38,923 nt of DNA, taken from a virus. Taxonomy: Duplodnaviria; Heunggongvirae; Uroviricota; Caudoviricetes. The translations under genes were made by a program, and so were the position numbers. The first letter of the stretch is position 1, and every line of letters starts with the position of its first letter. The DNA lies in IMG/VR virus record IMGVR_UViG_2541047706_000009. One strand, given 5' to 3'. This document shows positions 22,722-37,008 of this stretch, piece by piece. Below the pieces are notes generated by a model. The model made no database searches and was not told where the DNA came from. It saw only the letters and a program-made list of their open reading frames with translations.

Positions 22722-22798
22722 GTGGCATTAGCTCAGTTGGACAGAGCAACCGCCTTCTAAGCGGTTGGTCGCAGGTTCGAATCCTGCATGCCACGCCA
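22722..22798 (+). tRNA. tRNA-Arg (anticodon UCU), phage-encoded
   Basis: Cloverleaf readable by eye: acceptor GTGGCAT/ATGCCAC, D-arm GCTCAGTTGGACAGAGC, anticodon stem ACCGC/GCGGT with loop CTTCTAA, T-arm GCAGGTTCGAATCCTGC, discriminator G and encoded CCA. Confidence 0.85.
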
Positions 22799-27905: not shown

Positions 27906-28466
27906 TCACTCTCCTTTGATGCGAATGCCAGCGGCGCGTGGCACATTAACTTCCACGATGCGCACTGTTGGTTTGTACATCTCAATCGCTGTCAGCCAGT
28001 CAGCTCCTGTCATGCGCTTTTCCGCATCGCCATTAGTCCACTGAACCGGTACACCAATAGCCTTCATCGCGATTTCTATTTCCCCGGCAATGGCGCTTTT
28101 TCCGCAACCAGTAAAACCAGAAACAACGACAAGAACTTCACCTTTGGCTGGTTTTATTTCCCGTGCTTCCAGTTCTGCAATGCGCTTTTTGTCTGCTTCC
28201 CGTTCATCCAGTAGTGCCAGCACGGTAGCTGGACTGGCTGCGGCGATGAATTCAGCATTGGCCTGCTGTTCCATTTGGAAATCTTCATCGAAACCGCTTT
28301 CAGGATGCGCTCCTTCAATTCTGCAAATGGGAATATATCCAGCAGCCTCGCGATGAATTAGTGCATCATCACCATCAAATCGGCCCTCTCCATATTCGAG
28401 CGACCACACACCACACGTTGCTTTCTCTGCCTTTTCACGCAGTGCCTGATAGTCAATTTCGCTCAC
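27906..28466 (-). CDS. Ead/Ea22-like protein
   Basis: 186 aa; N-terminal MSEIDYQALREKAEKAT and internal ..ATVLALLDEREADKKRIAELEARE.. resemble the Ead/Ea22 family of lambdoid prophages (from memory). Confidence 0.45.
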   Translation of the reverse strand: MSEIDYQALREKAEKATCGVWSLEYGEGRFDGDDALIHREAAGYIPICRIEGAHPESGFDEDFQMEQQANAEFIAAASPATVLALLDEREADKKRIAELEAREIKPAKGEVLVVVSGFTGCGKSAIAGEIEIAMKAIGVPVQWTNGDAEKRMTGADWLTAIEMYKPTVRIVEVNVPRAAGIRIKGE

Positions 28467-28948
28467 TGTTTGCCCTCCTTCATAAAAATAATCCAGTGGG
28501 TCTTGTCACCTTTTCCTGTTCGTTGACCGATAACAGGCTTTCTGTCGGTCAGTGCCAATATCTGGCGAACAGGTATTTGCGTTTCATTCCATTTAAAAAT
28601 CAGAACGCCGGATGGACGCAACACACGAAAGGCTTCTTTAAATCCCTGCCGCAAATCATCACGCCAGGTATCTTTATTCAGTCGTCCATATTTCTTTCCC
28701 ATCCAGGCGTTATCACCAACACGCTCAAGATGCGGAGGGTCGAATACAACCATCGAAAAGGATGCGTCTGCAAATGGTAGTGCACGAAAATCAGCTATCA
28801 GGTCAGGACTGATAATCAGGCGTCGTCCATCACATAATGTGTGCTCTTCCTTTCTGATATCGCTAAATATCGCCCGGTCGTCATTCTTATCGAACCAGAA
28901 CATGCGACTGCCACAGCACATGTCGAGGATTGCTGCATTTCCAGTCAC
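28463..28948 (-). CDS. DNA methyltransferase (amino-methyltransferase type)
   Basis: About 161 aa from GTG with AAGGAGG RBS; SAM-binding-like block ILDMCCGSRMFWF and catalytic DPPH tetrapeptide (VVFDPPHL). Start overlaps the upstream stop (GTGA). Confidence 0.55.
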   Translation of the reverse strand: MTGNAAILDMCCGSRMFWFDKNDDRAIFSDIRKEEHTLCDGRRLIISPDLIADFRALPFADASFSMVVFDPPHLERVGDNAWMGKKYGRLNKDTWRDDLRQGFKEAFRVLRPSGVLIFKWNETQIPVRQILALTDRKPVIGQRTGKGDKTHWIIFMKEGKQ

Positions 28949-29610
28949 TGGCTGCCTCCTTTGCGAATCTGTTCCGCCCATTCTTCAAGGGATTTTTCCG
29001 CATATTCACCGGACAGGCCATCAATCGGATGCGGTTCATTAGCCAACTCTTCTTTCGCTGACAAAATCATGCGTGTAACGTCGAAAACTTCACGCAAAGA
29101 CTTATTGATAAATCCGTGATTGAACGCAGCAGCAAGACGGCTGGCGGTATAGTTAATCCCCTCGTTGCGTGCTTCCGCACGAATTTCAGACAGGAAAGCA
29201 TCGGTGGCCGGGGTTTCAACACGGATGCTGTCGCGCAAGATGAAAAATGCATTGAGCATTCCAGTCTCTGGCGCTTCATCCTGATGCTTCTCATACGCAT
29301 CAAGAGCCTTCATCATCTCAGGTCCGAATGGTTGAGGTTGCACATACTTCAGCCCCGCATTCTCCACTGCCAGCGCCGAAAACTTATCGTGTGCCAACTT
29401 AACAGCTGCATCAGCCTGCTTAATTGACTCAATCGCTTTCTGTTGGTCTTCGGCCAGCGCATTAGCACGCACCAGTTGCACTTCCAGTTGCGTTGCCAAA
29501 TCGCTGATCAGCTTTGCCACACTACGCATATCAACGGCACCACATTCTGCTTTCAGTTCCGAAGCCATCTCATGCCCGGCGGCAACTAACCCTTTGATAT
29601 TACTTTCCAT
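28945..29610 (-). CDS. Hypothetical protein coupled to the methyltransferase
   Basis: 221-aa helical/acidic ORF whose stop overlaps the methyltransferase start. Confidence 0.4.
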   Translation of the reverse strand: MESNIKGLVAAGHEMASELKAECGAVDMRSVAKLISDLATQLEVQLVRANALAEDQQKAIESIKQADAAVKLAHDKFSALAVENAGLKYVQPQPFGPEMMKALDAYEKHQDEAPETGMLNAFFILRDSIRVETPATDAFLSEIRAEARNEGINYTASRLAAAFNHGFINKSLREVFDVTRMILSAKEELANEPHPIDGLSGEYAEKSLEEWAEQIRKGGSQ

Positions 29611-29671
29611 CTTTACCCTCGCTTATCCACATAACTTATTGATTACATTGATAACTAAAAAGATCGTCGAT

Positions 29672-30133: not shown

Positions 30134-30934
30134 TTACTTGATAAATCCTGCCGCCTTTCCCCGCCTGTATTCCTCCATCAGCCACTGCGCCGGTGTTATT
30201 CCCCCAAGGGTGGCGGCGTTAGGCATGCACCCGAAACTTCGCCCTGGTGGATGGTAAACGTCTCTCCCTGTGTCCGGAGGTGTACTCATGGGTTCTGGCT
30301 TTGCCTGTATGCTGATCACCGGATCGGGTATCTGCTGTCCGGAAGCCACCTTTTTCGCCCAATCATCGAGCAGCCTGCGCGCGTGTTTCTCAACCTCAAT
30401 CTCGCTAAGCTGGCGCTGATACATTGCACGGCGGGTATCACATACGACCCAGTACATAACCGGATGTCGCCACGGGAATCTTTCGGGACCACCAGGATAT
30501 AAACTTTTTTCCTTGCTGTACCGGTGAAACTCCGCCATCACATCGTCAATGGTGACGCCAAGAACCATCTTGCTGTCTTTGCACCACTTGATAAATTGCC
30601 CTGGAGACGGCCAGAACGGAGATTCACTGGCGCGGGCGTGGCGCATACCAGCAGAAACCTGTTCACGGGTTCGGATCCCCCCTTCGGCAAACGCAGCAAT
30701 CCACTGCTGTTTTGCAGCAACTTCCTGCTCTGGCGTCTTCAGGTTGGTTACCACTGCCGCCGGAAACAGTTGTTTCAGCTGTTTAAAAAGGGCATCAACA
30801 AGCCTCTCTGCTGACATGTTCACCACATTGTCATTGTTGACGTACTGATGCTCATAACCTGACATGCGAGAAAGGGCTTCTCCGTCACGGTTTTGTATCG
30901 CGGTAAAAACGTTGTTCACAAGAAATCCTCCCAT
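30134..30934 (-). CDS. Replication protein P-like (helicase loader)
   Basis: 266 aa; block ..MRHARASESPFWPSPGQFIKWC.. matches lambda P ..MRVARRQNRPFLPSPGQFVAWC.., and the N-terminal region also aligns. Confidence 0.75.
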   Translation of the reverse strand: MGGFLVNNVFTAIQNRDGEALSRMSGYEHQYVNNDNVVNMSAERLVDALFKQLKQLFPAAVVTNLKTPEQEVAAKQQWIAAFAEGGIRTREQVSAGMRHARASESPFWPSPGQFIKWCKDSKMVLGVTIDDVMAEFHRYSKEKSLYPGGPERFPWRHPVMYWVVCDTRRAMYQRQLSEIEVEKHARRLLDDWAKKVASGQQIPDPVISIQAKPEPMSTPPDTGRDVYHPPGRSFGCMPNAATLGGITPAQWLMEEYRRGKAAGFIK

Positions 30935-31755
30935 GCTTCAGGGCTGTTCCAGTGCGGAACGTTGTTATCAGGTAATGTTGATTGCTTCTGTCTGCTAATC
31001 TGCAGCCGCCTTGCCAGCTTCTGCTCCCACTGTGCCTGATGGTATGCCTTACCCTCAGCCATCCAGTAAATTCTGAACTCTGCAAGTTCCTGTGCCGTTG
31101 GCAGACTGTCCAGGTAGATCCCCTGCAATGAGCTTTTCCGAAGAAAGTCATCTGATGGCTGCCATTGTTCATGCATGACAAATTTGCCTAATTGCCCTGG
31201 CCCACCAGGAGGAACAAAGTTATTCATCACGGCGTTGTTTGCGCCGGGGTCATGAGGCACAGAATCCCCGCTTTTTGTCCTGCTCTCCCTCTCTTGGTTA
31301 AATGACTGGTTATATGACTGGTTCTGGATCCCGTTTTTGGGATCATTCAACATCCCGTTTTTGGGATCATTCAACATCCCGTTTTTGGGATCATTCAACA
31401 TCCCGTTTTTGGGTATATTCCCGTTTTCGGTAACATTACCGTTTTCGGGTTCATTACCCCCCTCCCGGTTGCCTTTAATGTTCCCGTTTTTGGTTATATT
31501 AAGAGAGAAAACCCGTACTCTTTTCGTCGCCCCCTTTCTCTCTCCGGTATCTGAAATAAGCCCCATTTTCATGAGCGATATAAGCCCGGCCTGCACGGTT
31601 TTTTTATTCAGGCAAGTGTCTTTAACGAGGCGTTCTATGCTGGGGTAGCAGAGGTTATATTCATCGGCTCTGTCAGCCATCGAGAGCAGTATGAGCTTTA
31701 ATGATGAGCTACCTGGATCTGTCTCCCAGGCCCAATCTGTTGCATGTCTGCTCAT
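30916..31755 (-). CDS. Replication initiator O-like protein containing the origin iterons
   Basis: 279 aa; helical N-terminal domain; the central region encodes the repeated PKNGMLND peptide from the iterons; directly upstream of the P-like gene; GGAG RBS. Confidence 0.65.
   Translation of the reverse strand: MSRHATDWAWETDPGSSSLKLILLSMADRADEYNLCYPSIERLVKDTCLNKKTVQAGLISLMKMGLISDTGERKGATKRVRVFSLNITKNGNIKGNREGGNEPENGNVTENGNIPKNGMLNDPKNGMLNDPKNGMLNDPKNGIQNQSYNQSFNQERESRTKSGDSVPHDPGANNAVMNNFVPPGGPGQLGKFVMHEQWQPSDDFLRKSSLQGIYLDSLPTAQELAEFRIYWMAEGKAYHQAQWEQKLARRLQISRQKQSTLPDNNVPHWNSPEAWEDFL
31328..31458. repeat. Origin iterons: 3 perfect 24-bp repeats plus degenerate copies
   Basis: ATCCCGTTTTTGGGATCATTCAAC at 31328-31351, 31352-31375 and 31376-31399, then degenerate CCCGTTTTTGG / CCGTTTTCGG copies and an AT-rich stretch; each perfect unit contains GATC. 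Confidence 0.7.
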
Positions 31756-31770
31756 GATTAATCTCCGCTA

Positions 31771-31971
31771 TCAGCTTGAGTGTTGTGGGGAGGAATTAAT
31801 CATGATCTGCTTAATCTCTGCCCTGATGCGACGGTTTGATTCCATGGTGCACTCAACACAGTGTCCGTTGTAAACCCAGCGTTCACTGTCATGTCCGTGC
31901 TTACATGGTTTTCCGGTGTAGTAGCGTTTAAGTCCGCGCTTTGCGGCATCAATACGTGTAATGATTTCCAT
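31771..31971 (-). CDS. Small zinc-ribbon protein (CII-position gene)
   Basis: 66 aa from ATG 31971 (MEIITRIDAAKRG..) with C-x-H..C-x-x-C motif; sits between the cro-like and O-like genes. Confidence 0.4.
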   Translation of the reverse strand: MEIITRIDAAKRGLKRYYTGKPCKHGHDSERWVYNGHCVECTMESNRRIRAEIKQIMINSSPQHSS

Positions 31972-32050
31972 GGTAAGCCCTGTTATTAGTATTGGGATTA
32001 CGGTTATTTTGTGCTGACACAAAAAAAAGATCAACCATATTTGGTTTTTT

Positions 32051-32080: not shown

Positions 32081-32100
32081 AGACCGCCGGATGGCGGTCT
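32081..32100 (-). terminator. tR1-like terminator after the cro-like gene
   Basis: agaccgcc-ggat-ggcggtct hairpin followed on the minus strand by ttttcat. Confidence 0.55.
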
Positions 32101-32121: not shown

Positions 32122-32352
32122 TCATGAGTAGAAGAAGTATGCCAGTTCTGCTTTTGAGCGCAGCCATTGTCTTGTTTTACAGGCTTTAAAAAGCCCATTC
32201 ATCAATACCTTACCTGGCATTTTGCGCTTACCTGTTAAGTGAGTCTGGATATAGTGACTCGTCGTTCCGGCTTCCTGTGCGAAGGCTTCACGCTCATCCG
32301 GAGTAAGTGCAAGCCAGTGCTTTTTGAAATCGAAATGTCCGTTATCGCTCAT
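32122..32352 (-). CDS. Cro-like early regulator (first gene of rightward-type operon)
   Basis: 76-aa basic protein divergent from the repressor gene across an intergenic region with three operator-like palindromes. Confidence 0.45.
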   Translation of the reverse strand: MSDNGHFDFKKHWLALTPDEREAFAQEAGTTSHYIQTHLTGKRKMPGKVLMNGLFKACKTRQWLRSKAELAYFFYS

Positions 32353-32387
32353 AGCTATTGCCTGATATTTATTTCAGATAATAAATA

Positions 32388-32452
32388 TTCACCCATAAGG
32401 TAACAAAAATCAAGGATAGTTACCTGTGGGGTGCATTTACCTGTTGGGTAAT
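32388..32452. promoter_or_regulatory. OR-like region with three operator-like sites and divergent promoters
   Basis: TTCACC-cataa-GGTAAC (32388-32404), GTTACC-tgtgg-GGTGCA (32419-32435, weaker) and TTTACC-tgttg-GGTAAT (32436-32452). On the minus strand, a TTGATT -35 and GAATAT -10 flank the first site. Confidence 0.6.
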
Positions 32453-32506: not shown

Positions 32507-33091
32507 ATGAAAAGTATCCAGGACGTCCGCAGGCAAAATCTCAACGACTTGATCGACCGTGAATGCAATGGTGTTCAGACGCGGATGGCAGAAAAACTTG
32601 GAACTCAGGCAAATCTGGTAAACCGCTGGGCTCTTGGCAAGAAGGTTATCGGCGACCAGGTTGCACGAAAAATTGAAGCTGCCGCCAATAAACCCCGTAA
32701 CTGGCTTGATATTGATCGTTCGCTTTCTCAGGAGGGTTTTCAGCCTGTCGGCCCGAGCGATATAGGTCAGCTGGCGGCTCACAACCTGGAACGCTGGATG
32801 AGCGAAAGCCGCGACCTTTCAACACAGGGAAAACTTCACCGCGCATCCGGCGTCGCCCAGGTGACAATCAGCCGCCTGTTAAACAATGAGGTCAGCGTTT
32901 CCATTTCCACCCTGGAGAATGTTGCATCCGCATTCGGGCGTCACGGCTATGAATTACTGATTCACCCGCACGACCCTGCGACCATCAACTATGATCGCTC
33001 GCGCTACGCATTGTTACCCGAAACCGAGAAAGCAAAGATCGAAAGTTACATTGAATTTGTCATCAACCAGAACGAAAAAAACAAACAATAA
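32507..33091 (+). CDS. Putative prophage repressor, tandem HTH, no S24 peptidase domain
   Basis: 194 aa with two helix-turn-helix-like segments (..VQTRMAEKLGTQANLVNRWALGKK.. and ..ASGVAQVTISRLLNNEVSVSISTLENVASAFG..); no Ala-Gly/Ser-Lys autocleavage signature. Flanked by operator clusters and followed by a terminator. Confidence 0.55.
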   Translation: MKSIQDVRRQNLNDLIDRECNGVQTRMAEKLGTQANLVNRWALGKKVIGDQVARKIEAAANKPRNWLDIDRSLSQEGFQPVGPSDIGQLAAHNLERWMSESRDLSTQGKLHRASGVAQVTISRLLNNEVSVSISTLENVASAFGRHGYELLIHPHDPATINYDRSRYALLPETEKAKIESYIEFVINQNEKNKQ

Positions 33092-34720: not shown

Positions 34721-35658
34721 GCAACGACATCGCAAACATCAACGCACCAGTAGACACAGCAATCGCTGGAACTGCTGCAACTATTTTCAGCCCAGACGGC
34801 TTGAACCAACTGATGAAATTCGCCGAGGTAATGGCGCAAAGCCGCGTAACGGTACCGGCGCACCTCGCCGGGAAACCAGCTGATTGCATGGCCGTGGCAA
34901 TGCAGGCTGCGCAGTGGGGAATGAACCCGTTTGCCGTGGCTCAGAAAACCCATGTTGTGAACGGCACGCTAGGTTATGAAGCCCAATTAGTAAACGCAGT
35001 TATCTCAACGATGTCGCCAACAAAAGATCGCATCAACTACGAGTGGTTTGGGCCGTGGGAACGCGTGATCGGTAAGTTTGTTGAGAAAACATCCAAAAAC
35101 GGCAATCCATATATCGCACCAGGCTGGACTCTAAAAGACGAAGAAGGCTGCGGTGTTCGCGTATGGGCAACCATGAAGGGCGAGGATCAACCTCGAGTGC
35201 TTGAGTTAATGCTGTCTCAAGCACAGGTAAGAAACTCCACACTTTGGGCCAGTGATCCGAAACAACAACTCGCATACCTTGCGACAAAACGCTGGTCTCG
35301 CCTGCACTGTCCTGACGTAATCATGGGCGTCTACACCCCAGACGAATTACAGGAAACGGCACCGCGCGTTGAGCGAGACATTACTCCGCAAACGACAACT
35401 GCTGCGGGAATGAACAGTCTGATCAACGCTAAAACAGTGAAAAAGCCTGATGAGCAAACGCGTAAAGCGGATAGCCGTGATCCAGAAGAAATGCTGATGG
35501 CCTTTACCAGCGCAGCGATGAATTACAGCACTGTCTCCGAACTGGATAAGGCTTACAAATACATTGCACAAAAACTTTCAGATGATGACGAACTGCTGGC
35601 AAAAGCCACCGACGTTTACAGCGTTCGTCGGGAAGAATTAAACGAAATATCTATGTAA
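34717..35658 (+). CDS. RecT/Bet-family single-strand annealing protein
   Basis: 313 aa from ATG 34717; block ..CMAVAMQAAQWGMNPFAVAQKTHVVNG.. parallels the Bet/RecT core (..LLIVANQYGLNPWTKEIYAF..). Confidence 0.6.
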   Translation: MSNDIANINAPVDTAIAGTAATIFSPDGLNQLMKFAEVMAQSRVTVPAHLAGKPADCMAVAMQAAQWGMNPFAVAQKTHVVNGTLGYEAQLVNAVISTMSPTKDRINYEWFGPWERVIGKFVEKTSKNGNPYIAPGWTLKDEEGCGVRVWATMKGEDQPRVLELMLSQAQVRNSTLWASDPKQQLAYLATKRWSRLHCPDVIMGVYTPDELQETAPRVERDITPQTTTAAGMNSLINAKTVKKPDEQTRKADSRDPEEMLMAFTSAAMNYSTVSELDKAYKYIAQKLSDDDELLAKATDVYSVRREELNEISM

Positions 35659-36113: not shown

Positions 36114-36365
36114 ATGCGCAGCCCTTCAAAGATTGTCGCCGTTACTCCTGCGGCGATAGAGATCGAAAAACGCGCGATTGAAAGAGAGAAAAAAGGGCAA
36201 TTCCGCATTGCCGCTCACCTTTGGCTTCAGTGTATGGATGTTGCTTCTGGTGATGTTGAACGTGCAAGGATCGCGGTTCGCAGGGACCAATGTATCACAA
36301 AAGGTAACGGCCTTCGCCGTGGCGACTATAGCGGCATAGGATGTTGTGGGGTGGTTTATGACTAA
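36114..36365 (+). CDS. PerC-family-like small regulator
   Basis: About 83 aa from ATG 36114 with AAGG RBS (upstream starts at 36066/36099 possible); ..FRIAAHLWLQCMDVASGDVERARIAVRRDQC.. resembles the PerC pattern. Confidence 0.4.
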   Translation: MRSPSKIVAVTPAAIEIEKRAIEREKKGQFRIAAHLWLQCMDVASGDVERARIAVRRDQCITKGNGLRRGDYSGIGCCGVVYD

Positions 36366-37008
36366 GAAATACACACTAATCTATGCAGATCCACCCTGGG
36401 TATACCGGGACAAAGCCGCAGATGGTAATCGCGGTGCCAGTTTTAAATATCCGGTTATGAGTGTGATGGATATCTGCCGCCTTCCTGTGTGGGATTTGGC
36501 CGATGAAAACTGTCTGTTGGCCATGTGGTGGGTGCCAACACAACCACTCGAAGCGCTAAAAGTTGTTGAAGCCTGGGGATTCCGTCTGATGACCATGAAG
36601 GGCTTCACGTGGATAAAATGTGGTAGTCGACAACCAGATAAACTGGTTATGGGTATGGGGCACATGACTCGCGCCAATAGTGAAGATTGCCTGTTTGCGG
36701 TAAAGGGAAAACTACCTACGCGCATTAATGCAGGGATCGTTCAGTCATTTACCGCACCGCGGCTTGAGCATTCAAGAAAACCAGATATCGTTCGTGAAAA
36801 ACTTGTGCAATTGTTAGGCGATGTTTCTCGCATTGAACTGTTCGCCCGCCAGACGTCTCATGGCTTCGATGTTTGGGGTAATCAGTGCGAAGACCCGGCA
36901 GTGCAACTACACCCTGGATACGCGTTGGATATTGGCGGATTAACAAATGCATTCAGCAATGCTCCGGTGTCACCAATAGACAACCAGGGGCGGGAGCGTG
37001 CAGCATGA
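36358..37008 (+). CDS. MT-A70-like DNA N6-adenine methyltransferase
   Basis: 216 aa from ATG 36358; catalytic DPPW in YADPPWVY near the N-terminus, typical of MT-A70 enzymes. Confidence 0.65.

What the first reader, a model, noticed from the sequence alone, without database searches (positions are those of the whole stretch)
31328..31510. Replication origin inside the O-like gene: three perfect 24-bp iterons, each with GATC
Three exact tandem copies of ATCCCGTTTTTGGGATCATTCAAC are followed by degenerate copies and an AT-rich stretch, all inside the initiator gene where they encode the repeated PKNGMLND linker, as in lambda ori. Each perfect unit contains an internal palindrome ATCCC-N6-GGGAT and GATC sites, so the origin could be sensitive to Dam-type methylation; the prophage encodes two methyltransferases of unknown specificity.
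Basis: partly seen in the sequence, partly recalled or inferred. Interest (0 to 1): 0.5.

Follow-up and report, generated by a model that had tools for sequence, protein, structure and literature searches.

The report
Phage replication origin inside initiator gene
The repeats are very probably the replication origin of a phiV10-type E. coli prophage, built like the lambda origin (initiator-binding repeats inside the initiator's own gene); this is an expected kind of element, though this origin family, found in many phages, seems not to have been described.

Summary
TRF finds 3.6 exact copies of ATCCCGTTTTTGGGATCATTCAAC at 31328-31413, and degenerate copies run to about 31496. The gene is on the minus strand (30916-31755). 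On the sense strand there are seven CC(A/G)AAAACGG cores, against 0.18 expected by chance.

The initiator is not a lambda O homologue. It has an HTH_36 winged-helix N-domain, a disordered linker encoded by the repeats, and a DnaT-like C-terminal domain. A lambda-P-type loader gene follows.

In 23 diverse relatives sharing the N-domain, the strict core occurs 74 times just after the N-domain coding part and once elsewhere. It appears in all three reading frames and its synonymous positions are fixed. Genes that share only the C-terminal domain lack it. This points to selection on the DNA for initiator binding.

'Three perfect copies' is one allele: close relatives carry 1-5.

GATC occurs in the iterons of only 7 of 22 relatives, and neither phage methyltransferase is Dam-type.

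Verdict: a new member of a known kind; moderate interest.

The parts
31328..31496 (-). Iteron array. Seven copies of a roughly 16-bp imperfect dyad with a central A-tract. On the sense strand the perfect copies read ATCCC-AAAAAC-GGGAT. Cores (CCRAAAACGG) lie at 31331-40, 31355-64, 31379-88, 31403-12, 31421-30, 31439-48 and 31484-93. Centre-to-centre spacing is 24, 24, 24, 18, 18 and 45 bp. These are the presumed binding sites for the initiator's N-terminal winged helix.
   Evidence: Family-wide conservation that is position-specific, strand-specific and independent of reading frame. Synonymous-site constraint.
31328..31413 (-). This is the recently amplified, copy-number-variable part of the array, and it carries the GATC sites (31327, 31341, 31365, 31389).
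   Evidence: Close relatives carry 1-5 such units, with a mode of 2.
31452..31480 (-). The 45-bp gap between iterons 1 and 2. It is probably a decayed iteron: AACCGGGAGGGGGGTAATG compared with AACCCGAAAACGGTAATG.
   Evidence: Read directly from the sequence. The Superficieibacter relative has an intact iteron with 18-bp spacing at this position. Weak evidence.
31295..31327 (-). Tandem 12-bp repeat (sense AACCAGTCAT[A/T]T, 2.4 copies) directly after the last iteron. It is the second, family-conserved origin element and my preferred candidate for the DNA-unwinding and helicase-entry site.
   Evidence: TRF score 51. The exact unit occurs nowhere else in the window. It is among the less stable DNA of the window (94th-96th percentile, GC 0.39). 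Homologous 9-14-bp tandem units sit at the same position in nearly all relatives, often with a period that is not a multiple of 3.
31262..31297 (-). Purine-rich tract on the sense strand (CCAAGAGAGGGAGAGCAGGACAAAAAGCGGGGA, about 85% purine) following the 12-mers. Many relatives have an A-rich tract at this position. It may be part of the unwinding region.
   Evidence: Sequence and relatives. GC is 0.56, so it is not AT-rich here. Weak evidence.
31494..31513 (-). Short, mildly AT-rich stretch on the promoter-proximal side of iteron 1.
   Evidence: The 40-bp window starting at 31473 is the least stable in the gene (98.5th percentile of the window). This side is not consistently AT-rich in relatives.
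30916..31755 (-). Initiator gene (279 aa). It has an N-terminal winged helix (aa 1-88, Pfam HTH_36), a disordered linker (aa 90-191, partly encoded by the repeats) and a DnaT-like C-terminal ssDNA-binding domain (aa 189-273).
30134..30919 (-). Lambda-P-family helicase loader gene. It probably starts at GTG 30919 behind a GGAGGA Shine-Dalgarno sequence, overlapping the initiator stop codon as GTGA.
   Evidence: Pfam PF06992 E=1.5e-56 and phrog_109. The phiV10 annotation gives the 786-nt form. Sequence.
32378..32406 (-). PR-like promoter candidate (TTGTTA-17-TATTAT) that would drive leftward transcription through the cro-like gene, the initiator gene with the origin, and the P-like gene.
   Evidence: Consensus scan only. 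Gene order.
32081..32100 (-). Intrinsic terminator between the cro-like gene and the replication genes, in the position of lambda tR1.
   Evidence: A terminator is annotated at the equivalent place in phiV10.

Best explanation
This is the vegetative replication origin of a phiV10/epsilon15-type temperate phage (genus Uetakevirus), here a prophage. It lies inside the initiator gene, as ori-lambda lies inside gene O.

Proposed mechanism (inferred unless marked otherwise):
1. After induction, leftward transcription from the PR-like promoter expresses the initiator and the P-like loader and passes through the origin.
2. The initiator's N-terminal winged helix, probably acting as a dimer, binds the seven dyad iterons (ATCCC-AAAAAC-GGGAT and variants). 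These are spaced 18-24 bp apart and each carries an A5 tract, so the result would be a wrapped, bent complex like the lambda O-some.
3. The adjacent DNA opens. My preferred site is the family-conserved tandem 12-mers at 31295-31327.
4. The DnaT-like C-terminal domains, brought together by the iteron array, capture the single strand. The C-terminal domain of E. coli DnaT forms helical filaments on ssDNA.
5. The lambda-P-like protein delivers host DnaB helicase.

The repeats also have to encode protein. They fall in a linker predicted to be disordered, which tolerates changes in repeat number.

Shown here: the sequence anatomy, the domain families, the predicted fold, and conservation at the DNA level across the family. 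Inferred: binding, bending, the site of opening, and helicase loading.
For: Anatomy. There are seven cores on one strand against 0.18 expected. The gene layout is lambda-like: repressor, divergent promoters, cro-like gene, terminator, small gene, initiator, P-like loader. The iterons occupy gene positions 263-431, compared with 349-433 in lambda O. The sequences also resemble each other: lambda has TCCCTC-AAAACG-AGGGA.

Proteins. The N-domain hits HTH_36 at E=1.9e-10. The 77-sequence AF2 model gives pLDDT 95-98 for aa 1-88 with an H-H-H-H-beta-hairpin winged-helix layout, and aa 90-191 are predicted disordered. Foldseek returns dimeric winged-helix DNA binders such as MarR, Fur/PerR, BlaI and TubR. 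The C-domain matches solved DnaT C-terminal domain structures at E about 1e-20. The DnaT C-terminal domain forms filaments on ssDNA (PMC13377028). The loader hits PF06992 at E=1.5e-56.

Selection at the DNA level. I compared 23 diverse loci sharing the N-domain (Gamma- and Betaproteobacteria and Desulfovibrio). The strict core occurs 74 times on the forward strand at gene positions 241-601, 0 times elsewhere on that strand and once on the reverse strand, about 860-fold enrichment. Cores fall in all three reading frames (58, 10 and 6). Where the core is read in its commonest frame, Lys is AAA in 22/22, Glu is GAA in 18/18, Asn is AAC in 38/40, and the third base of the variable preceding codon is C in 39/40, against 19% elsewhere in the same genes (p=2e-26).

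Module co-inheritance. The iterons travel with the N-domain whatever the C-domain or loader is: GF-2 has a lambda-O-type C-terminus plus P, AP22 has a DnaB-like helicase, and others differ again. Tyrion and TL-2011b share only the DnaT-like C-domain and lack the iterons. In more distant N-domains the iteron arms change but remain dyads around an A/T-rich centre: AGTGCC/GGCACT, TCGG/CCGA, GTACCA/TGGTAC, CCCCC/GGGGG.

Second element. Tandem units of 9-14 bp follow the last iteron in nearly all members. In Vibrio the 13-bp period means the same DNA encodes NQSL in one copy and EPVI in the next.

Copy-number variation, from 4 to 9 cores in close relatives, parallels lambda with 4 iterons and Stx phages with 6 (PMC7466680).
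Against: There is no experimental evidence for binding, unwinding or origin activity. I found no paper describing this origin.

The window has no strongly AT-rich tract next to the iterons. The flanking 40-bp windows have GC 0.30-0.42, against 0.20 in lambda. The least stable DNA in the window lies in intergenic regions: 30055, 32362 and 29622. The last of these is next to a perfect DnaA box at 29623.

Homology of the N-domain to lambda O was not detected (hhalign probability 5%), so the lambda analogy rests on architecture.

The perfect identity of the 24-bp units reflects recent duplication, not conservation.
Confidence: 0.8

Rival explanations
1. The repeats are only a protein feature: a slippage-prone, low-complexity linker (PKNGMLND)n with no role as DNA.
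For: The repeat-encoded region is predicted disordered. Copy number varies in frame among close relatives, by 24, 18 or 12 bp, all multiples of 3, as expected for a tolerant linker.
Against: The same 10-nt core recurs in all three reading frames, encoding PKNG, QKR or PKTE. Synonymous positions are fixed while the amino acid at the first position varies. The motif occurs on one strand only and in one place only. The dyad arms co-vary across distant relatives. The short repeats have periods of 9, 10, 13 and 14 bp.
Confidence: 0.04
2. The array is a Dam/SeqA-controlled origin. GATC sites in the iteron arms would make initiator binding, or post-replicative sequestration, depend on adenine methylation by host Dam or by a phage methyltransferase.
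For: There are 4 GATC in 66 bp: 22 per kb in the array against 3.4 per kb in the flanks. They lie in the dyad arms of the three iterons nearest the 12-mers. The same bias toward those iterons is seen in 6 other relatives. SeqA matters for plasmids derived from Stx phages, which gave fewer than 10 transformants in a seqA deletion strain (PMC7466680). From my own knowledge, not tested here: SeqA binds pairs of hemimethylated GATC up to about 30 bp apart.
Against: GATC is absent from the iterons in 15 of 22 relatives, including those in Vibrio, Providencia and Proteus. The degenerate iterons in this window have none. The GATC count simply follows the number of copies of one amplified unit. The window as a whole has the number of GATC expected from base composition (153 against 151). 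The two phage methyltransferases are MT-A70 family and a generic class-I SAM enzyme, not Dam-family.
Confidence: 0.15
3. The iterons act mainly as a negative control or exclusion element rather than as the start site. They would titrate or 'handcuff' the initiator, or inhibit the replication of related superinfecting phages, and initiation would take place elsewhere, for example in the AT-rich intergenic DNA at 29611-29671 that carries a DnaA box.
For: Iterons in plasmids serve both initiation and copy control (established knowledge; review PMC4980987 listed, not read). A perfect DnaA box at 29623 sits in some of the least stable DNA of the window. Cloned lambda replication regions give a replicative-inhibition phenotype (PMC3349717, abstract only).
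Against: The architecture of iterons followed by a conserved short-repeat element is found wherever this N-domain occurs, whatever the neighbouring genes are. That fits a self-contained origin. There is only one DnaA box, and the number of DnaA-box matches in the window is at or below chance (2 against 3.75 expected). A control role would add to an origin role rather than replace it.
Confidence: 0.07
4. The array is a set of RNA or DNA hairpins. In the antisense direction these would be tandem intrinsic terminators (GGGAT-N8-ATCCC followed by T5); in the mRNA they would be structured elements.
For: The terminator scan lists three such sites on the + strand, at 31338, 31362 and 31386.
Against: The stems have only 5-6 pairs, 3 of them G-C. 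The scan as a whole found 5 sites against 3.5 expected. Folding the region gives z=-0.93, with 38 of 200 shuffles folding at least as well. In relatives the conserved dyad lies within each iteron, and the sequence between iterons varies.
Confidence: 0.02

Closest known systems
ori-lambda in gene O of phage lambda, and the six-iteron origins of Stx phages 933W and P27
   Same: The origin sits in the middle of the initiator gene, in the part that encodes the linker. It consists of several imperfect dyad iterons, 16-19 bp long, with a central AAAAC and C-rich/G-rich arms (lambda TCCCTC-AAAACG-AGGGA; here ATCCC-AAAAAC-GGGAT). Spacing is about 18-24 bp, and in both cases the iterons fall in different reading frames. 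The putative unwinding element lies on the side toward the 3' end of the gene. A lambda-P-family loader gene follows and overlaps the initiator stop codon. Iteron number varies between relatives.
   Different: The initiator N-domain is Pfam HTH_36, not Phage_rep_O, and homology between them was not detectable. The C-domain is DnaT-like rather than lambda-O-like. There are seven iterons rather than four or six. There is no strongly AT-rich tract; instead there is a conserved tandem 12/13-mer.
Iteron origins of plasmids (RK2 oriV, pPS10, F, R6K, P1 oriR) and E. coli oriC
   Same: Directly repeated initiator sites lie next to an unwinding element that is itself made of short tandem repeats. From my own knowledge: oriC has three 13-mers and RK2 has four 13-mers. 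The initiator binds through winged-helix domains.
   Different: This origin lies inside a coding sequence. There are no DnaA boxes at the origin. The short repeats are only mildly AT-rich. The initiator has one winged helix plus a DnaT-like domain, not the two winged-helix domains of the Rep family.
E. coli DnaT (primosomal protein I)
   Same: The C-terminal residues 189-273 match the DnaT C-terminal domain, a three-helix ssDNA-binding domain, with E about 1e-20 to 4OU6, 4OU7, 6AEP and 9ZBT. RefSeq names the protein 'DnaT-like ssDNA-binding domain-containing protein'.
   Different: Only the C-terminal domain is shared. The NCBIfam DnaT equivalog scores 85 bits against a cut-off of 201. The N-terminal part is a sequence-specific winged helix, not the DnaT N-terminal oligomerisation domain. 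The 'primosomal protein' labels in phage records are therefore misleading.
Other members of the same origin family found here, none annotated with an origin: phiV10, PPompW prophages, Edwardsiella GF-2, Vibrio H20-like phages, Acinetobacter AP22, Burkholderia Bcep176
   Same: They share the N-domain, the same or related iterons, and short tandem units after the last iteron.
   Different: They carry different C-terminal domains and helicase loaders, different iteron numbers, and GATC in only some lineages.

Membership tests
Lambda-type (lambdoid) origin / O-P replication module | Initiator-binding iterons located inside the initiator gene, in the region that encodes the inter-domain linker | tested here: met
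   Seven cores lie at gene positions 263-425 of 840, which encode aa 88-146. The AF2 model predicts aa 90-191 to be disordered, between two folded domains. Lambda's iterons lie at gene positions 349-433.
Lambda-type (lambdoid) origin / O-P replication module | Each iteron is an imperfect inverted repeat with a central A-tract | tested here: met
   The perfect copies read ATCCC-AAAAAC-GGGAT. The dyad arms co-vary across the family.
Lambda-type (lambdoid) origin / O-P replication module | A strongly AT-rich tract of about 40 bp directly after the last iteron | tested here: not met
   The 40 bp after the last iteron have GC 0.40-0.42, and the 12-mers have -1.26 kcal/mol per bp. Lambda has GC 0.20 and -1.12 kcal/mol per bp. 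A tandem 12-mer takes this position instead.
Lambda-type (lambdoid) origin / O-P replication module | Initiator N-domain belongs to the lambda O family (Pfam PF04492, Phage_rep_O) | tested here: not met
   The window protein hits HTH_36 (PF13730) and not PF04492. Lambda O hits PF04492 at E=5.7e-36. hhalign gave a probability of 5%.
Lambda-type (lambdoid) origin / O-P replication module | A lambda-P-family helicase loader is encoded immediately downstream | tested here: met
   PF06992 E=1.5e-56 and phrog_109 E=4.7e-92.
Lambda-type (lambdoid) origin / O-P replication module | The initiator binds the iterons, and replication depends on the initiator and loader | not testable with these tools
   This needs EMSA or footprinting and a replication assay.
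Iteron-type origins in general | Several directly repeated sites, each about two helical turns long, specific to the cognate initiator and co-evolving with its DNA-binding domain | tested here: met
   Spacing is 17-25 bp. The core is present wherever the close N-domain is present, altered in distant N-domains, and absent where only the C-domain is shared.
Iteron-type origins in general | An adjacent DNA-unwinding element | tested here: inconclusive
   The conserved short tandem repeats are in the right place but are only mildly unstable in this window (94th-96th percentile). Unwinding itself was not testable.
DnaT (primosomal protein I) | Full-length similarity, including the N-terminal domain | tested here: not met
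   Only aa 189-272 match positions 86-169 of the 179-position NCBIfam DnaT model. The score is 85 bits against a cut-off of 201. Hits to solved structures cover only the C-terminal domain.
Dam/SeqA-regulated origins (oriC, P1 oriR) | A cluster of GATC sites in the origin | tested here: met
   There are 4 GATC within 31327-31392: 22 per kb against 3.4 per kb in the flanks.
Dam/SeqA-regulated origins (oriC, P1 oriR) | The GATC cluster is conserved among related origins | tested here: not met
   GATC is present in the iterons of 7 of 22 relatives and absent from those in Vibrio, Providencia and Proteus.
Dam/SeqA-regulated origins (oriC, P1 oriR) | Methylation state affects initiation | not testable with these tools
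   This needs dam and seqA mutant hosts or methylation-sensitive binding assays. The phage methyltransferases are not Dam-family.

The most novel reading that the evidence does not exclude
The tandem 9-14-bp units that follow the last iteron (GAAYCnnTCAnt; 31295-31323 in this window) could be a sequence-specific origin element in their own right, not just easily melted DNA. One possibility is a site where the initiator, or a universally conserved host replication protein, binds one strand after opening, comparable to the DnaA-trios or 13-mers of oriC and the RK2 13-mers. Together with the DnaT-like filament-forming C-domain, this would define a large, undescribed class of phage origins (3653 cluster representatives at 50% identity) that open DNA by a route different from lambda's AT-rich tract.
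Probability: 0.3. Interest if true: 0.55.

Novelty: new member of a known kind. Interest (0 to 1): 0.35.

Why it matters
The finding places the replication origin of phiV10/epsilon15-type phages. phiV10 is used as a reporter and biocontrol phage for E. coli O157:H7, and 424 of 5426 complete E. coli genomes carry this initiator gene.

It also corrects a common annotation. The gene is a sequence-specific origin-binding initiator, not a 'primosomal protein' or 'DnaT'.

The comparative analysis gives a simple recognisable signature: an HTH_36 N-domain, then CCNAAAACGG-type dyad iterons, then short tandem GAAY units. This signature should locate origins in a large family of phages and prophages of Proteobacteria and Desulfovibrio. 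Such origins could be tested as minimal replicons.

It also means the array should not be read as a meaningful protein repeat, and that its length is a polymorphic marker. None of this overturns current understanding. It extends the lambda paradigm to another initiator family.

Tried and rejected
- Literature searches for phiV10 or epsilon15 origins, for the iteron sequence itself, and for DnaT-like initiators with iterons found nothing relevant. The only hits to the iteron sequence were papillomavirus E2 sites (ACCGAAAACGGT), which is a coincidence.
- Profile comparison of the N-domain with the lambda O N-domain gave a probability of 5%, so homology is neither shown nor excluded.
- A sequence-profile search of the N-domain against the PDB gave only marginal winged-helix hits, all with E>0.2.
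- Single-sequence AF2 of the N-domain was unusable (pLDDT 52). It was replaced by the 77-sequence model.
A 3-sequence alignment worked.
- ssDNA/RNA folding of the array showed nothing (z=-0.93). The antisense terminator-like hairpins are weak. I rejected a structural-RNA reading.
- A DnaA-box search found none at the origin.
- I rejected frameshift-type phase variation, because every observed length change is a multiple of 3.
- I rejected an assembly artefact, because the copy-number alleles recur in many independent assemblies, including complete genomes.
- One script failed because of a wrong start-codon pattern and another because of file naming. Both were rerun.
Full report
**1. What is in the sequence**

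Tandem Repeats Finder reports a 24-bp unit, ATCCCGTTTTTGGGATCATTCAAC, in 3.6 exact copies at 31328-31413 (score 172). It also reports an overlapping, more degenerate 18-bp-period array at 31403-31458 and a separate 12-bp repeat, TGGTTAAATGAC, in 2.4 copies at 31295-31323. The repeat finder adds one more copy at 31478-31501.

All of this lies inside a 279-codon ORF on the minus strand, 30916-31755. On the sense strand the common core is CC(A/G)AAAACGG, at gene positions 263, 308, 326, 344, 368, 392 and 416. The window holds 8 matches to this core against 0.18 expected from shuffles. Seven are in the array, all on the minus strand.

The perfect units read ATCCC-AAAAAC-GGGAT on the sense strand and encode PKNGMLND three times. 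GATC occurs at 31327, 31341, 31365 and 31389.

**2. Context**

The window is 98% identical to E. coli O157 phage phiV10 (genus Uetakevirus, epsilon15-like) over the replication region. It is a prophage of that type, with an integrase-side arrangement like a relative integrated next to guaA.

The local gene order resembles lambda:
- a repressor with two HTH motifs (32507-33091, +);
- divergent promoters;
- a cro-like gene (32122-32352, -);
- an intrinsic terminator (32081-32100);
- a 67-aa protein;
- the initiator;
- a lambda-P-family protein (Pfam PF06992, E=1.5e-56).

**3. The initiator is not a lambda O homologue**

The initiator's N-terminus hits Pfam HTH_36 (E=1.9e-10) and its C-terminus hits the DnaT DNA-binding domain (E=1.2e-15). 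PHROG 1032 calls it a replication initiation protein. Lambda O instead hits Phage_rep_O. A profile comparison of the two N-domains was not significant.

The C-terminal 85 residues match solved DnaT C-terminal domains at E about 1e-20. The full DnaT model is not met: 85 bits against a cut-off of 201.

An AlphaFold2 model built from 77 family sequences gives pLDDT 95-98 for residues 1-88. The layout is a winged helix, with four helices and then a beta-hairpin. Residues 90-191, which include everything encoded by the repeats, are predicted disordered. Foldseek returns generic dimeric winged-helix DNA binders (MarR, Fur/PerR, BlaI, TubR) at E about 0.01.

**4. Comparison with lambda**

I fetched the lambda origin region. 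Its four annotated iterons (for example TCCCTCAAAACGAGGGA) lie at O gene positions 349-433, in reading frames 0, 2, 2 and 1. They are followed at once by a 40-bp stretch with GC 0.20.

The iterons in this window sit at the equivalent place and share the C-rich arm / AAAAC / G-rich arm design. The flanking DNA differs. The 40 bp downstream of the last iteron have GC 0.40-0.42.

On nearest-neighbour stability, the two least stable parts of the gene flank the array. These are 31474-31513 (98.5th percentile of the window) and 31290-31330 (94th-96th percentile). Both are clearly more stable than lambda's AT-rich tract.

**5. Is the repeat selected as DNA or as protein?**

This is the key question, and related sequences answer it.

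A tblastn search of phage records and one scan of GTDB genomes gave 23 diverse loci that share the N-domain at 44-87% identity. They include E. coli PPompW prophages, Edwardsiella GF-2, Vibrio H20, Acinetobacter AP22, Burkholderia Bcep176 and an EBPR podovirus. They also include prophages in Superficieibacter, Marinobacterium, Vibrio, Phaseolibacter, Providencia, Proteus, Ignatzschineria, Wohlfahrtiimonas, Pseudoalteromonas, a Granulosicoccaceae genome and Desulfovibrio.

Four results point to selection on the DNA:
- **Position and strand.** The strict core CCNAAAACGG occurs 74 times on the forward strand at gene positions 241-601. It occurs zero times elsewhere on that strand and once on the reverse strand, about 860-fold enrichment.
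- **Reading frame.** Sixteen of the 74 cores are in the two minority frames, often within a single gene: V. salinus has frames 1, 0, 2 and Desulfovibrio has 2, 1, 1, 2, 0, 2.
- **Synonymous sites.** Where the core is read as [P/T/S/A/V][K/E]NG, Lys is AAA in 22/22, Glu is GAA in 18/18 and Asn is AAC in 38/40. The third base of the variable first codon is C in 39/40, against 19% elsewhere in the same genes (Fisher p=2e-26).
- **Co-inheritance with the N-domain.** Tyrion and TL-2011b share only the DnaT-like C-domain and have no such motif. GF-2 combines this N-domain and these iterons with a lambda-O-like C-terminus and a lambda P gene. AP22 has a DnaB-like helicase gene next to the initiator.

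In more distant N-domains (Zoogloeaceae, Sphingobium, Methylotenera, Acinetobacter calcoaceticus, Desulfovibrionaceae) the iteron sequence differs. Each is still a dyad around an A/T-rich centre: AGTGCC-AAAAGT-GGCACT, TCGG-AAAAAT-CCGA, GTACCA-ATAT-TGGTAC, CCCCC-GAAATT-GGGGG. Arms that change together in this way are what a dimeric DNA-binding protein would require.

The N-domain family is large. There are 3653 cluster representatives (50% identity) at E<=1e-3 and 527 at E<=1e-10, and the domain is always at the N-terminus. Of 120 full-length representatives, 98 show two or more iteron-encoded peptide motifs after the domain.

**6.

In nearly every member, the last iteron is followed at once by 2-4 tandem copies of a 9-14-bp unit with the consensus GAAYCnnTCAnt. 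Examples are:
- AGAACCAGTCATT in Vibrio;
- GAACCTATCAGT in Zoogloeaceae, Granulosicoccaceae and Desulfovibrionaceae;
- GAATCTATCAGAA in Acinetobacter;
- GGAATCTCCCAA in Desulfovibrio;
- GAACAGTAG, four copies, in Bcep176;
- AACCAGTCAT[A/T]T in this window, at 31295-31323.

This unit is more conserved than the iterons. It is present whatever the C-terminal domain or loader is. Its period is often not a multiple of three: in Vibrio H20 the same DNA encodes NQSL in one copy and EPVI in the next. The exact unit occurs nowhere else in the window. In many relatives an A-rich tract follows. In this window the tract that follows is purine-rich (31262-31297).

By position this is the counterpart of lambda's AT-rich region, and it is my preferred candidate for the unwinding and helicase-entry site. 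Its actual function is unresolved.

**7. 'Three perfect copies' is an allele**

Seventy-eight close relatives from IMG/VR, with N-domains about 100% identical, carry 1-5 copies of the 24-bp unit (mode 2) and 1-4 copies of the 18-bp unit. That gives 4-9 cores in total. phiV10 itself has two 24-bp units and three 12-mers. The gene occurs in 424 of 5426 complete E. coli genomes, with lengths of 792-852 bp. All length changes are in frame.

The perfect identity therefore reflects recent slippage or unequal exchange. This parallels lambda with four iterons and Stx phages with six (PMC7466680).

**8. Dam methylation**

The array holds 4 GATC in 66 bp, but the count simply follows the amplified unit. 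Across the family, GATC lies in iteron arms in 7 of 22 loci: this window, Superficieibacter, Phaseolibacter, GF-2, two Pseudoalteromonas and PPompW. In each case it is in the iterons nearest the short repeats. It is absent in 15 loci, including Vibrio, Providencia and Proteus.

The two phage methyltransferases exist. One (36346-37008) is MT-A70 family. The other (28463-28981) is a generic class-I SAM enzyme that PHROGs labels a DNA methyltransferase. Neither is a Dam-family enzyme.

A methylation effect specific to this lineage, acting through host Dam and SeqA, remains possible. It is not a property of this origin type.

**9. Mechanism proposed**

Shown: the sequence anatomy, the domain families and fold, and the DNA-level conservation.

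Inferred: the winged-helix N-domain binds the seven dyads as dimers and, through the phased A5 tracts, bends the DNA into an O-some-like complex. The neighbouring short-repeat region opens. The clustered DnaT-like C-domains capture single-stranded DNA; the C-terminal domain of E. coli DnaT forms a helical filament on ssDNA (PMC13377028). The P-like protein brings in host DnaB. Transcription from the PR-like promoter passes through the origin, as in lambda.

**10. Rivals**

- A purely protein-level repeat is excluded in practice by the frame, synonymous-site and strand evidence.
- Hairpin or terminator readings fail: fold z=-0.93 and weak stems.
- A control-only role, with initiation elsewhere, cannot be excluded without origin mapping. 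A perfect DnaA box sits in unstable intergenic DNA at 29623. The self-contained module seen across unrelated genomic contexts argues for an origin.

**11. Novelty and score**

The kind of element is textbook: an iteron origin inside the initiator gene. This particular origin family, with an HTH_36 initiator, CCNAAAACGG dyads and GAAY short repeats, appears in no paper my searches found and in no annotation in the records I inspected.

I rate it a new member of a known kind, with interest 0.35. The part most worth following up is the conserved short-repeat element.

Noticed in passing
window 31295-31323, and the equivalent positions in L005-L010 and L091-L114: Tandem 9-14-bp units (consensus GAAYCnnTCAnt) follow the last iteron in almost every member of this initiator family. 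They are more conserved than the iterons, and their period is often not a multiple of 3. Their function is unknown. They share GAAY-N3-YC with the left half of the iteron.
   Followed up: partly
window 29611-29671: A perfect DnaA box (TTATCCACA, 29623-29631) lies in an AT-rich intergenic stretch that is among the least stable DNA of the window, about 1.7 kb from the iterons.
   Followed up: no
window 22722-22798 (+): A tRNA-Arg (anticodon tct) is encoded within the prophage, between the structural and packaging genes. A close relative has the same tRNA annotated.
   Followed up: no
window 36346-37008 (+) and 28463-28981 (-): There are two methyltransferases. One is MT-A70 family (N6-adenine type; its best PDB relatives are MT-A70 and METTL3 catalytic domains). 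The other is a small class-I SAM enzyme in PHROG 954. Their specificities are unknown, and neither is Dam-family.
   Followed up: partly
window 30916-30934: The P-like gene most likely starts at GTG 30919 behind a GGAGGA Shine-Dalgarno sequence (30927-30932), which gives a GTGA stop/start overlap with the initiator gene. The ATG at 30934 listed by the ORF finder is probably not the start. phiV10 is annotated with the shorter form.
   Followed up: partly
window 31771-31974 (-): A 67-aa cysteine/histidine-rich protein (PHROG 1081, function unknown, with a faint resemblance to the N-terminus of endonuclease VII) sits between the cro-like gene and the initiator, where lambda has cII.
   Followed up: no
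window 32507-33091 (+): The repressor-like protein has two HTH motifs, and Pfam reports no peptidase S24 (LexA-like) domain for it. A close relative encodes an antirepressor (Ant). Induction may therefore work through an antirepressor.
   Followed up: no
window 35093-35102 (+): There is a single stray copy of the iteron core CCAAAAACGG inside the RecT-like gene. It is probably a chance match.
   Followed up: no
L105 (Granulosicoccaceae MAG), gene positions 418-455: The initiator ORF ends at a TAG created inside the 14-bp short repeats, leaving a 450-nt ORF. The gene may be split or decaying while the origin repeats remain intact.
   Followed up: no
L006 (Edwardsiella phage GF-2), 1501-3026: This is a natural hybrid. 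It combines the HTH_36 N-domain and the iterons of this family with a C-terminus like that of lambda O, followed by a lambda P gene. It illustrates exchange of origin-recognition and loader-recruitment modules.
   Followed up: partly
literature search: The iteron core with its flanks (ACCGAAAACGGT) is identical to the papillomavirus E2 binding site ACCG-N4-CGGT. This is a coincidence of two dimeric DNA binders rather than homology.
   Followed up: no
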